A DNA stretch of 12,057 nucleotides from Octopus sinensis (Eukaryota). The stretch spans positions 1 through 12,057 of the forward strand of contig NW_021826670.1 of the NCBI RefSeq assembly GCF_006345805.1, in the 5' to 3' direction. Shown piece by piece: positions 9,595 to 11,499 of this stretch. The number at the start of each line of letters is the position of its first letter. The first letter of the stretch is position 1. A model generated the notes under the pieces. That model had not been told where the DNA came from. It saw nothing but the letters and a program-made list of their open reading frames with translations, and searched no databases. The translations under genes were made by a program, and so were the position numbers.

Positions 9595-9638
9595 TTCCTG
9601 ATGAAGGCTGGAAGGTATATCAACCGAAACGCTGTGTT
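9595..9638 (+). ncRNA. Degenerate hammerhead ribozyme-like core
   Basis: CTGATGA (9598-9604), then aGGCTG...CAACC (stem II with one mismatch), then GAAAC (9626-9630). Stems I and III are poorly formed in this copy. Confidence 0.45.
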
Positions 9639-9791
9639 AACAACAAACACGTTGAGGACAAATATCCGTCAATTGTAAATAATGTAAATAATGAATGTAT
9701 GAGATGTTCTGTATAAAATCAGGCTAACATCAGAGTAAAGTAATACTCAATACTTTTAATAAAGTACAAGTTTATTAACATTCACAAAGTT

Positions 9792-9837
9792 CACAGTGAC
9801 GTCGACGTTTCAGTTTGTTCGTGTTCATCAGACAGCG
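9792..9837 (-). ncRNA. Degenerate type I hammerhead ribozyme
   Basis: Minus strand cgctgt-CTGATGA-acacgaacaaact-GAAACG-tcga-CGTC-actgtg. Stem III is the palindrome ACGTCGACGT, the cleavage triplet is GUC, stem I pairs 5/6, and stem II is decayed. AATAAA follows downstream. Confidence 0.55.
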
Positions 9838-9871
9838 GTTTTTGTTTACGTCTTCGTATGTAAGAGGATCA

Positions 9872-10004
9872 GGAAAAGAGACGAATGGATCCTGGTGTTA
9901 GAATTCTGAAGAATAAGTACGGGGTCGTTTTGTTCGACTAAATCCTTCAAGACATGGCCCAGCAAGGCTGCAGTCCAATGGCCTGTCCAAATACAAGTAA
10001 AAGG
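9872..10004 (+). mobile_element. SINE family A 3' tail fragment
   Basis: AGAATAAGTACGGGGTCGTTTTGTTCGACTAAA...CCAGCAAGGCTGCAGTCCAATG...ACAAGTAAAAG. Confidence 0.7.
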
Positions 10005-10010
10005 TATTAT

Positions 10011-10067
<57 letters not shown>

Positions 10068-10130
10068 GATATATACATATATACATATATGAGTGTGTGT
10101 GTGTGCATATATATATATATATATATATAA
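10011..10130. repeat. (ATAG)n followed by (TA)/(TG) microsatellites
   Basis: About 14 ATAG units at 10011-10066. Confidence 0.97.
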
Positions 10131-10307
10131 TAATAAATATTAGGGAATAAATCCAAATTTACAGGGAAAAAATCAGATTTAGGATTAAATCCAATTTTAT
10201 AGTAAAATATTATAAAATATTATTAGAGACAAAACCACTATTTTGCAAAACAAACAAGGAAAGACTTAATCAATACATAAAATTTTAATAAATAGTCAAA
10301 AAAACCG

Positions 10308-10350
10308 CCACTACAATTGTTTCTTGTCTTGATCGACAATCTTCAGGTGG
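10308..10350 (-). ncRNA. Minimal type I hammerhead ribozyme, structurally intact
   Basis: Minus strand CCAC-CTGAAGA-TTGTC-gatcaa-GACAA-GAAAC-aatt-GTA-GTGG: stem I 4 bp, stem II 5 bp, palindromic stem III ACAATTGT, GUA cleavage site. Confidence 0.85.
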
Positions 10351-10379
10351 ACTTCCAATCAAAGAAAGCTGAAACAGAA

Positions 10380-10560
10380 CTGATTGAGCAGTTCAGACCC
10401 TTTTCAATCTTGAATGTAGATGGCAAGATTTATATGGGTCCAGTTGCCAAGAGATCAGCTACACATCTCCAAAATAATGACTATGAGACCGAGAGTGTCC
10501 AGGATGCTGGAATTTCCAGAACCACTGGATGGGTAGAACATGATTTTTCAATCTTCCATA
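10380..10560 (+). pseudogene. Non-LTR retrotransposon reverse transcriptase fragment (mirrored on the minus strand at ~11015-11192)
   Basis: LIEQFRPFSILNVDGKIYMGPVAKRSATHLQNNDYETESVQDAGISRTTGWVEH resembles the motif FRPISLLNVxGKI...AKRLxxYLxxNxYIDxSVQKxGxxGxxGCxEH of RLE-type (R2-superclade, e.g. HERO-like) RTs. Confidence 0.75.
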
Positions 10561-11221
10561 TAACGTGTTATTAGATTCGCTCATTTTAGGAGAAAACAAA
10601 ACTGGTTGAACTCAATAGACGTCATTGATTGGTTGAAATTGCAGAAATTGAAGAAAAAAAACAACAAATATCTTACAAACTATAGAATCTTCTCAATAAA
10701 GCCAAGAGAAAAAGATGTTTTATAAACATATTCTACCAGTATACGAAGTTTAAAAGTGTTTAGTTAACTAGAAATTATTTTTTAAATCTGTAGGTCAAAA
10801 GGTAAAGACCGTAGCAGAATATATGAGTAAGCTTTCTTAAAATAATTAGGTGTAAAGAAAATTAAAAAAGAAACTGAAAGTGAGATAGTTGAGAAAATGA
10901 AACTAATTTGTTGTTTTTTTTCTTCAATTTCTGCAATTTCAACCAATCAATGACGTCTATTGAGTTCAACCAGTTTTGTTTTCTCCTAAAATGAGCGAAT
11001 CTAATAACACGTTATATGGAAGATTGAAAAATCATGTTCTACCCATCCAGTGGTTCTGGAAATTCCAGCATCCTGACACTCTCGGTCTCATAGTCTTATT
11101 TTGGAGATGTGTAGCTGATTTCTTGGCAACTGGACCCTTAATATCTTGCCATCTACATTCAAGATTGAAAAGGGTCTGAACTGCTCAATCAGTTCTGTTT
11201 CAGCTTTCTTTGATTGGAAGT

Positions 11222-11262
11222 CCACCTGAAGATTGTCGATCAAGACAAGAAACAATTAGTGG
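11222..11262 (+). ncRNA. Hammerhead ribozyme copy with a 2-nt deletion in stem III
   Basis: CCAC-CTGAAGA-TTGTC-gatcaa-GACAA-GAAAC-aatt-A-GTGG. It lacks the GT present in the left-arm copy. Confidence 0.7.
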
Positions 11263-11411
11263 CGGTTTTTGTTTTTTGACTATTTATTAAAATTTTATGT
11301 ATTGATTAAGTCTTTCCTTGTTTGTTTTGCAAAATAGTGGTTTTGTCTCTAATAATATTTTTTATATATATATATATATTATAGGAAAAAAGCAACAAGA
11401 ATGGATTAAAA

Positions 11412-11499
11412 TCTCGGTACGATCGTTTCGTACGAGGACATCTTTAATAAGCTACAAAAAATGCAGTGAATACAGATGGCTCGTACTCGTCAGCCGAAA
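11412..11499 (-). ncRNA. Type I hammerhead ribozyme with extended stem II, structurally intact
   Basis: Minus strand TTTCGG-CTGACGA-GTACGAG-(43 nt including a CATCT/AGATG helix)-CTCGTAC-GAAAC-gatc-GTA-CCGAGA: stem I 6 bp (one G-U), stem II 7 bp with the canonical G-C closing pair, palindromic stem III ACGATCGT. Confidence 0.9.

What the first reader, a model, noticed from the sequence alone, without database searches (positions are those of the whole stretch)
9595..11499. Cluster of five hammerhead ribozyme motifs from four unrelated families within 1.9 kb
Seen: CUGANGA...GAAAC cores at 9598 (+), 9792-9837 (-), 10308-10350 (-), 11222-11262 (+) and 11412-11499 (-). Their helices are unrelated in sequence, yet three families have a self-complementary stem III (ACGTCGACGT, ACAATTGT, ACGATCGT). 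No comparable motif was found in the first 9.5 kb. Known: Penelope-like retroelements and retrozymes carry minimal type I HHRs with a palindromic stem III, thought to cleave as dimers. Inference: this is an insertion hotspot for several non-autonomous HHR-bearing retroelement families that may be undescribed in this taxon. No Penelope RT or GIY-YIG ORF is visible here.
Basis: partly seen in the sequence, partly recalled or inferred. Interest (0 to 1): 0.85.

Follow-up and report, generated by a model that had tools for sequence, protein, structure and literature searches.

The report
Penelope-type hammerhead mini-elements, one tRNA-headed
Four small mobile-element copies lie side by side here, each with a minimal hammerhead motif (a predicted self-cutting RNA) of a kind already known from Penelope-like jumping genes; most are damaged, and the only unusual one is a very abundant family that likely starts with a tRNA-like promoter.

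Summary
The five hammerhead cores are real (5 observed, shuffle mean 0.08) but come from four insertions: 10308-10350 and 11222-11262 are the two arms of one 96%-identical inverted duplication. Only two motifs are intact (10308-10350, 11412-11499). 9598 lacks stem I through a 10-base deletion, 11222 lost its cleavage triplet, and 9792 has no stem II. Contigs of four public runs show that other copies of the 9598 family have all three stems and a palindromic stem III, and that three of the four families are very abundant (rough depth ratios of thousands to over 100,000). These are minimal type I hammerheads of the Penelope pseudo-LTR kind, in short non-coding elements that mostly end at (TA)n tracts. 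A true hotspot is not established. That suggests a SINE carrying a Penelope-type ribozyme, seen at this locus only. Cleavage, host taxon (probably octopus, recalled) and the mobilising enzyme are untested.

The parts
9261..9398 (-). Element 1, left (inverted) arm: tRNA-like head (predicted +1 at 9398, A box 9391-9381, B-box-like 9346-9338), 12-base segment 9335-9324, (AAT)n 9323-9295, 34-base linker 9294-9261; cut off at 9261 by a different SINE-like repeat
   Evidence: Exact A-box match, B box with one mismatch 45 bases on; 3 of 3000 shuffles give such a pair; linker 94% identical, inverted, to 9554-9587; no ARAGORN or Rfam tRNA call
9399..9401 (.). Inversion junction of element 1, 1-3 bases outside the predicted tRNA +1
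   Evidence: Sequence; position of +1 inferred from the A box
9402..9693 (+). Element 1, right arm: same 12-base segment, (AAT)n 9414-9485, (ACT)n 9502-9554, linker 9554-9587, hammerhead core 9598-9633, tail ending in a 9-base tandem repeat at 9693
   Evidence: contigs of X1, X3 and X16 run from 9565-9578 through the core with a gap of about 10 bases (table 8)
9598..9638 (+). Motif 1: damaged copy (10 bases missing at 9598/9599 remove the 5' strand of stem I; 9623 and 9632 differ from the family). Family form: stem I 5 bp, unpaired A after A9, stem II 5 bp closed by G-C, palindromic ACGU stem III, cleavage predicted after 9633 (GUU)
   Evidence: loose ends at 9597/9598 in 4 of 4 runs; 9623 A>G in 88-96% and 9632 C>T in 94-98% of depth
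9694..9837 (-). Element 2: motif 9837-9792 (core 9831-9825, 10-base palindrome 9808-9799, cleavage predicted after 9798, stem I 5 of 6 pairs, no stem II) and AT-rich tail running to the end of element 1; ends uncertain
   Evidence: near single-copy in the runs (depth ratio 3 and 7); single-copy contigs 9671-10001 (X1) and 9667-10001 (X3)
10130..10351 (-). Element 3: intact motif (stem I 10350-10347/10311-10308, core 10346-10340, stem II 5 bp closed by U-A, palindrome 10320-10313, cleavage predicted after 10312, GUA) and 180-base tail ending at (TA)n 10107-10128
   Evidence: depth ratio about 22,000 (X1) and 69,000 (X3)
10360..10554 (+). Decayed fragment of a non-LTR (LINE) reverse transcriptase, antisense to motif 3; not a Penelope RT
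   Evidence: phmmer best E 8e-12, 85 hits; 6 of 6 long hits tested carry RVT_1; 56% identity to P0013, whose best solved relatives are R2 proteins
10611..10808 (.). Piece of another very high-copy repeat of unknown class, spanning the inner end of the left arm and part of the 236-base spacer (10670-10905)
   Evidence: Depth up to 4.5 million in X1, loose ends at 10611, 10776-10778 and 10964
10906..11369 (+). Inverted duplicate of 10207-10669, holding motif 4 (core 11226-11232) with a 2-base deletion at 11257 that removes palindrome and triplet
11379..11568 (-). Element 5: about 190 bases between (TA)n 11363-11378 and 11569-11614; intact motif 11499-11412 (stem I 6 bp, stem II 7 bp closed by G-C and extended, palindrome 11426-11419, cleavage predicted after 11418, GUA)
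   Evidence: fold z -3.5; homodimer minimum-energy fold has hammerhead form; depth ratio about 3,300-3,600; a contig of X11 is identical over 11425-11541

Best explanation
This is a pile-up of four short, non-coding repeat copies with minimal type I hammerhead motifs, likely non-autonomous passengers of Penelope-like retroelements, whose RNA is predicted to cut itself only when two copies pair through the palindromic stem III. Shown: the motifs, their damage, the inverted duplication, the family-level restoration of motif 1, the abundance, the (TA)n ends of elements 3 and 5. Inferred mechanism: each element is transcribed; a Penelope RT/GIY-YIG protein made elsewhere nicks AT-rich or microsatellite DNA and reverse-transcribes from the tail through the uncleaved hammerhead; copies are 5'-truncated and sometimes fold back into head-to-head inverted pairs (elements 1 and 3/4). 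Shared AT-rich targets plus high copy number produce local clusters. Element 1 likely supplies its own RNA polymerase III promoter through a tRNA-like head. Most copies here are decayed and would not cut.
For: Motifs far above chance. In the family form of motif 1 the majority bases restore a C-G pair in stem II and the palindrome, and the missing 10 bases restore stem I, in 4 of 4 runs. It has the unpaired base after A9, the G10.1-C11.1 pair and the palindromic 15.2-16.2 listed for Penelope min-HHRs (PMC4209133, parts 1-2 read). Motif 5 hits Hammerhead_1; its monomer minimum-energy fold mispairs the core while its homodimer fold has stems I, II and an 8-bp intermolecular stem III; for motif 3 the active dimer is within 1.6 kcal/mol of the best fold when trimmed to 10306-10352. 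Head-to-head pairs, 5' truncation and microsatellite targets are described for Penelope-like elements (PMC8557442 passages); pairs of min-HHRs 100-700 bp apart on opposite strands and mostly solo motifs are described in Schistosoma; the anole element cuts AT-rich DNA and uses uncleaved RNA (PMC11167929). Elements 3 and 5 end at (TA)n.
Against: No Penelope ORF could be linked to any family: no genome is held and five collection scans gave one chance match in a bacterium. No compensatory change was demonstrated; the common variants at 9630, 9631 and 10318 look like CpG decay and break the palindrome in a third to a half of the depth in X1. Motif 3 has U-A, not G-C, closing stem II, and with longer flanks folds into an inactive shape. 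Motif 2 has no stem II and no family was recovered. No cleavage ends or circular joints could be seen, because all runs were contigs. Element 1 has no (TA)n at its 3' end, and no target-site analysis was possible.
Confidence: 0.75

Rival explanations
1. A true insertion hotspot: something special at this locus (for example open chromatin or a self-reinforcing nest) attracts several hammerhead-bearing families.
For: Four insertions in 1.9 kb and none in the first 9.5 kb. At 10,000-100,000 motifs per 2.8 Gb, four or more in 1.9 kb are expected in only 0.0001-1.2 windows per genome under uniform placement.
Against: At 300,000 motifs about 90 such windows are expected, uncounted families raise this, and the window was picked by a scan. 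If the host is Octopus vulgaris (recalled, not shown), Penelope-like DNA is 6.83% of the genome in 190 families (PMC13282606 supplement row). Microsatellite targeting alone clusters insertions. The motifs differ in state of decay, so they did not arrive together.
Confidence: 0.2
2. The elements are LINE-dependent SINEs or non-LTR retrozymes (rolling-circle, tandem) rather than Penelope passengers; the hammerhead serves to release or circularise monomers.
For: Element 1 has a tRNA-like head and ends in a short tandem repeat, as LINE-moved SINEs do (general knowledge). Schistosoma SINE-like elements combine a Pol III promoter with a hammerhead (review PMC6765202 passage).
Against: No tandem units at this locus; helices are of the minimal Penelope type; two head-to-head inverted structures; retrozymes themselves are now argued to derive from Penelope pseudo-LTRs (10.64898/2026.07.22.740005, abstract, part 1 and passages), so the two views partly merge.
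Confidence: 0.15
3. The tRNA-like head belongs to a separate short SINE with an (AAT)n tail, and a hammerhead-bearing Penelope stub inserted into that tail at this locus before a local inversion; head and ribozyme are not one family.
For: Linkage is seen at one locus, and both arms derive from one template. Read laying skipped 9230-9563. Penelope endonuclease prefers ATT sites. Two earlier scan notes of 'SINE plus hammerhead' in other genomes did not hold up.
Against: The inversion point sits 1-3 bases from the predicted transcription start, which fits copying of one RNA from tail to head. The linker beyond the (AAT)n is continuous with the hammerhead in contigs of X1, X3 and X16.
Confidence: 0.35
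4. The right arm 10906-11369 (motif 4) is an assembly error or a DNA-level fold-back duplication rather than a product of retrotransposition.
For: Differences between arms are indel-rich (6 gaps, 4 substitutions); the duplicated unit is a patchwork of unrelated repeats; no contig was laid on 11047-11204 in 4 of 4 runs while contigs match the left-arm LINE fragment with 0-1 substitutions.
Against: Ties are laid on one place only and contigs drop rare variants, so the hole proves nothing; inverted, partly truncated arms are normal for Penelope insertions.
Confidence: 0.3
5. The motifs are chance matches in repeat-rich DNA.
For: Rfam finds none in the whole-window scan; three of five are incomplete.
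Against: 0 of 2000 shuffles reach the observed counts at three stringencies; family majority bases complete motif 1.
Confidence: 0.02

Closest known systems
Minimal type I hammerheads (min-HHR) of metazoan Penelope-like element pseudo-LTRs (Cervera and de la Pena 2014, PMC4209133)
   Same: Intact CUGANGA/GAAA core, short stem I, 5-7 bp stem II, palindromic stem III suited to dimers, many unrelated families in one genome, mostly solo copies, some pairs on opposite strands within 1 kb.
   Different: No link to a Penelope ORF shown here; motif 3 closes stem II with U-A; motif 5 has a 57-base stem II region; one element has a tRNA-like head; my searches found no description for cephalopods.
Schistosoma Sm-alpha/Sj-alpha SINE-like elements with a hammerhead (as reviewed in PMC6765202; the primary papers were not read)
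   Same: Pol III-type promoter upstream of a type I hammerhead in a short non-coding repeat (element 1).
   Different: Those are often tandem and carry canonical hammerheads shown to cleave; element 1 is dispersed here, has a microsatellite between head and ribozyme, a minimal hammerhead and a head-to-head inverted structure.
Non-LTR retrozymes (PMC7229834; 10.64898/2026.07.22.740005)
   Same: Short, non-coding, type I hammerhead, AT-rich, probably Penelope-derived.
   Different: Defined by tandem units and circular RNA; no tandem units at this locus and circles could not be tested.
Naiad elements of Octopus (Naiad_Obim, Naiad_Ovul; PMC8557442 supplement)
   Same: (TA)n insertion preference, inverted structures.
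   Different: They lack canonical hammerheads, and the core motifs of elements 2, 3 and 5 do not occur in that supplement file (0 hits for 3 of 3 motifs; long protein runs in the file are cut and line breaks could hide a match).

Membership tests
Minimal type I hammerhead (PLE-type) | Core CUGANGA ... GAAA ... UH in type I order | tested here: met
   Motifs 2, 3, 5 in the window; motif 1 in family form; motif 4 lost the triplet
Minimal type I hammerhead (PLE-type) | Stems I and II able to pair | tested here: met
   Met for motifs 3 and 5 and the motif 1 family; not met for the window copies of motif 1 (stem I) and motif 2 (stem II)
Minimal type I hammerhead (PLE-type) | Palindromic stem III allowing a dimer | tested here: met
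   8-10-base palindromes in motifs 2, 3, 5; 4-base (6 with flanks) in the motif 1 family; dimer folds
Minimal type I hammerhead (PLE-type) | G10.1-C11.1 pair closing stem II | tested here: inconclusive
   Met in motifs 1 and 5, not met in motif 3/4 (U-A) or motif 2
Minimal type I hammerhead (PLE-type) | Covariation among copies | tested here: inconclusive
   Only per-site variant tables (40 of 46 rows shown), no individual copies; no compensatory pair demonstrated
Minimal type I hammerhead (PLE-type) | Self-cleavage | not testable with these tools
   Needs in vitro assay or raw stranded reads; all 24 runs listed were contigs
Rfam Hammerhead_1 (RF00163) | Score at or above the gathering threshold of 34 bits | tested here: not met
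   Best 21.4 bits for motif 5; no hit for the others
Penelope-like element | RT plus GIY-YIG ORF linked to the pseudo-LTR | not testable with these tools
   None seen in the window; no genome; the only RT fragment found is LINE-type
Penelope-like element | 5'-truncated, inverted or partial-tandem insertion structure | tested here: met
   Two head-to-head pairs; other origins of the inversions are not excluded
Penelope-like element | AT-rich or microsatellite target | tested here: inconclusive
   Elements 3, 4 and 5 end at (TA)n; elements 1 and 2 do not; no empty sites available
tRNA-derived SINE | A and B boxes at tRNA spacing at the 5' end | tested here: met
   Exact A box, B box with one mismatch, 45 bases apart; 3 of 3000 shuffles. 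Consensus patterns are recalled.
tRNA-derived SINE | Detectable homology to a tRNA | tested here: not met
   No ARAGORN call, no Rfam tRNA hit, fold no better than shuffles; common for aged SINE heads (general knowledge)
tRNA-derived SINE | Head and body linked across many copies | not testable with these tools
   9230-9563 was skipped by read laying; a translated-frame search found nothing
Non-LTR retrozyme | Tandem units each with a hammerhead | tested here: not met
   No such array in 9200-11720; arrays elsewhere in the genome untested

The most novel reading that the evidence does not exclude
Element 1 is a tRNA-headed SINE of about 260-300 bases that has captured a Penelope pseudo-LTR with its minimal hammerhead and is mobilised by Penelope RT/GIY-YIG rather than by a LINE, reaching tens of thousands of copies or more: a Penelope-dependent SINE, among the most abundant ribozyme families in its genome, whose Pol III transcripts could pair through the palindrome and cut each other in trans.
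Probability: 0.4. Interest if true: 0.65.

Novelty: new member of a known kind. Interest (0 to 1): 0.4.

Why it matters
As a cluster it is ordinary: abundant, mostly solo minimal hammerheads are known across animal genomes with Penelope-like elements. It adds an apparently unreported host group and three abundant families, one young enough (element 5) for cleavage tests. If element 1 is a Penelope-mobilised SINE, it extends the SINE-partner rule beyond LINEs and offers a natural, self-transcribing minimal substrate for defining what Penelope protein recognises and what the hammerhead is for, which is open (the anole element transposes in vitro without cleavage). I found no such pairing in print in searches, apart from the Schistosoma elements, but the library lacks most subscription papers and Repbase/Dfam were not searchable.

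Tried and rejected
Own genome: not held. Scans for other copies of element 1: viral contigs 0 and 0, metagenome contigs 0 and 0, prokaryote genomes 1 match in a Planctomycetaceae contig, treated as chance and not examined. Earlier findings by place, by three sequences and by two word sets: nothing. Translating the head-linker frame to find spurious proteins that span head and ribozyme: no candidate; ESM Atlas best score 0.80, uninformative. First protein search of the RT fragment: no hit; Pfam on the fragment itself: none; solved-structure search only E 0.7-1.3 to LINE-1 ORF2. Shared tail motif between families: only elements 3 and 5 reach 38 of 1000 shuffles, one of six tests, not accepted. 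Rfam miRNA hits are microsatellite artefacts. Joints between 10281-10301 and 11271-11290 join the two arms of a high-copy repeat and were not taken as evidence. Only 4 of 24 listed runs were laid. Lunse et al. on dimer cleavage (PMC5785218) is not held and is known to me only from a reference list. Supplements of PMC8967140 hold no matching sequence; the O. vulgaris repeat library is on Zenodo and could not be seen, and may already contain these families under SINE, Penelope or unknown labels. bioRxiv supplements are closed.
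Full report
Setting. The window is repeat-saturated animal DNA: microsatellites, several SINE-like repeats and a mariner fragment whose best named relatives are from a land snail and a spider. I recognise the SINE and microsatellite pattern as octopus, but that is recall; no call names the host. No genome is held.

The observation. In 9560-11520, 5 cores, 3 motifs with palindrome plus stem I and 2 complete motifs compare with shuffle means of 0.083, 0.0015 and 0; 0 of 2000 shuffles reach any of the three counts. 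In 1-9559 there is one bare core, at chance level (110 of 300 shuffles), and nothing more complete. Rfam sees none in the whole-window scan; a narrow scan gives Hammerhead_1 at exactly 11412-11499 with 21.4 bits, below the gathering score of 34, and the narrow scans of motifs 1 and 3 give no hammerhead.

Four insertions, two intact motifs. 10207-10669 and 10906-11369 are inverted copies, with 4 substitutions and 6 gaps in 469 columns. Motifs 3 and 4 are therefore one sequence, and motif 4 lacks two bases of the palindrome and triplet. Motif 3 (stem I 4 bp, stem II 5 bp, 8-base palindrome, GUA) and motif 5 (6 bp, 7 bp, 8-base palindrome, GUA) are complete. Motif 2 has a 10-base palindrome and 5 of 6 stem I pairs but no stem II. 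Motif 1 has no stem I. Motif 5's monomer fold mispairs the core, whereas its homodimer minimum-energy fold has stems I and II, an 8-bp intermolecular stem III and an open core. For motif 3 the active dimer is -23.0 against a best fold of -24.6 kcal/mol when trimmed, but with longer flanks an inactive fold wins. Motif 2 does not fold as a hammerhead.

Other copies. I laid 4 of 24 listed runs (organisms A, A, B, C; contigs only; two are guessed to be RNA). At 9597/9598 all four give loose ends showing 10 further bases that supply the 5' strand of a 5-bp stem I. At 9623 the majority base (88-96% of depth) restores a C-G pair in stem II, and at 9632 the majority base (94-98%) restores the palindromic stem III and a GUU triplet. 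So motif 1 is a dead copy of a family whose majority form is a textbook minimal hammerhead, with the unpaired base after A9 and the G10.1-C11.1 pair listed by Cervera and de la Pena (PMC4209133, parts 1-2 of 4 read). Against this, the frequent variants at 9630, 9631 and 10318 sit in or toward CpG dinucleotides and break palindromes in many copies, and no compensatory pair could be shown (40 of 46 variant rows were displayed). Summed depth over single-copy depth gives about 23,000-82,000 (X1) and 102,000-253,000 (X3) for element 1, 22,000 and 69,000 for element 3, 3,600 and 3,300 for element 5, and 3 and 7 for element 2. The tool warns that summed depth is not a copy number, and overlapping short contigs inflate it, so I use these only as 'thousands to a hundred thousand'. 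Element 2 is old or rare at the 80% threshold.

Anatomy. Element 5 is about 190 bases between two (TA)n tracts; element 3 ends at (TA)n 10107-10128 and the right arm at (TA)n 11363-11378. Upstream of motif 3 the family stops at about 10351, at the 5' strand of stem I. What follows is a patchwork: a 195-base decayed LINE RT fragment in the opposite sense (best E 8e-12; 6 of 6 long relatives tested carry RVT_1; R2 proteins are the closest solved relatives of one of them), 56 unassigned bases and a piece of another very high-copy repeat. The inverted duplicate could be a Penelope-type inverted insertion carrying upstream sequence, a DNA-level fold-back, or an assembly error; the indel-rich differences keep the last two open. 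Tails of the four families are unrelated (5 of 6 comparisons at shuffle level; elements 3 and 5 at 38 of 1000).

The 34 bases before motif 1 (9554-9587) recur inverted at 9261-9294. Read on the minus strand, 9398-9261 is a tRNA-like head with an exact A box and a one-mismatch B box 45 bases on (3 of 3000 shuffles), then a 12-base segment, (AAT)n and that linker. The plus strand from 9402 repeats the 12-base segment, (AAT)n and linker and runs on into the hammerhead and tail. The inversion point (9399-9401) lies 1-3 bases outside the position that would be tRNA +1. The simplest reading is that one RNA, head-(AAT)n-linker-hammerhead-tail, was copied to its 5' end and folded back, the same head-to-head form as elements 3/4. 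Limits: ARAGORN and Rfam do not call the head a tRNA; read laying skipped 9230-9563; the linkage is one locus; and a Penelope stub inserted into the (AAT)n tail of an ordinary SINE is a real alternative. I put family-wide linkage at about 0.65 and Penelope mobilisation given linkage at about 0.6.

How it most likely works. Shown: motifs, damage, duplication, abundance, ends. Inferred from published Penelope biology: a Penelope protein made elsewhere cuts AT-rich DNA and starts reverse transcription in the tail, using uncleaved RNA; in the anole element the hammerhead cuts only with protein and cleavage is not needed for insertion in vitro (PMC11167929, parts 1-2 of 4 read). Insertions are 5'-truncated, often with an adjacent inverted copy, and biased to microsatellites (PMC8557442, passages). 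The palindrome would let two hammerheads complete each other's stem III, so solo copies would be silent or weak; min-HHRs showed none or low activity in vitro. Confidence 0.75.

Hotspot. Under uniform placement in a 2.8-Gb genome (size borrowed from O. vulgaris), windows of 1.9 kb with three or more motifs number 0.08, 2, 73 or 1780 for 10,000, 30,000, 100,000 or 300,000 motifs; with four or more, 0.0001, 0.01, 1.2 or 90. So the cluster is locally enriched but is not shown to be exceptional, given uncounted families, shared microsatellite targets and selection by the scan. In O. vulgaris Penelope-like DNA is 6.83% of the genome in 190 families (supplement row); that paper (parts 1-2 of 3 read, plus term search) does not mention hammerheads or ribozymes.

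Comparison and novelty. It works like, and by structure belongs with, the min-HHRs of Penelope pseudo-LTRs; membership of the elements in a Penelope family is untested because no ORF could be linked. It fails the retrozyme test of tandem units at this locus (definitions from PMC7229834 passages, and 10.64898/2026.07.22.740005 part 1 and passages). The nearest precedent for element 1 is the Schistosoma SINE-like hammerhead repeat (review PMC6765202, passages). Searches for hammerhead with octopus or cephalopod returned only the Naiad paper and a twister survey (listings); searches for a tRNA-derived Penelope-dependent SINE returned nothing on point (listings; passages of PMC10886601 and PMC4758252). 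An earlier scan note on another genome reached the same 'real, abundant, known kind' verdict; it is unchecked and not independent support. Verdict: new members of a known kind, interest 0.4; the SINE reading has probability 0.4 and would deserve 0.65.

Noticed in passing
window 11426, 11431, 11444, 10286, 10329 in run X16: X16 (organism B, guessed RNA) has 9 T>C sites against 1-2 in the other three runs; on the ribozyme strand these are A>G, one at core position A15.1 of motif 5 (51.9 of 83.5 depth, 7 contigs; 0 in the other runs). Could be A-to-I editing of ribozyme-strand transcripts or simply a species difference; no DNA run of organism B was laid.
   Followed up: partly
window 10611-10808 and 10906-10964: A repeat with the highest depth in the region (up to 4.5 million in X1); loose ends on its two sides contain short complementary stretches, suggesting internal inverted repeats; class unknown.
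   Followed up: no
window 10360-10554: The decayed LINE RT fragment is matched with 0-1 substitutions by contigs of all four runs (organisms A, B, C) at low multi-copy depth, which continue unlike the window on both sides; one (X11) lacks 17 bases at 10498. A degenerate RT piece copied recently as part of some other element. 'Hero clade' is my recalled guess.
   Followed up: partly
window 9692-9693 (loose ends): Copies of element 1 diverge just past 9693 with low agreement (0.42-0.60), while some carry about 30 further shared bases; resembles the optional 30-40-base Penelope tail but cannot be resolved from consensus ends.
   Followed up: partly
window 180-347, 1150-1553, 4307-4515, 5255-5373, 9017-9262, 9909-10003, 11713-11918, 12013-12054: Several copies and fragments of another tRNA-like SINE family (A/B boxes 44 bases apart at 1155 and 9022); one truncates the left arm of element 1 at 9261.
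   Followed up: partly
window 328-1128: Mariner-type remnant with inverted ends (328-407 and 1048-1128, 81%) and a transposase fragment 441-794 on the minus strand (best E 2e-32). A further related-looking end lies near 8170-8230, not tested.
   Followed up: partly
window 10130-10215, minus strand: The 3' end of element 3 folds into a 13-bp AT-rich hairpin (z -2.3, 3 of 200 shuffles), a candidate reverse-transcription start structure.
   Followed up: partly
PMC8557442 supplement, 3' end of Naiad_Obim: Shows GAAAC followed some 20 bases later by CUGAUGA, i.e. the two core halves in the reverse order; unrelated to the window's families.
   Followed up: no
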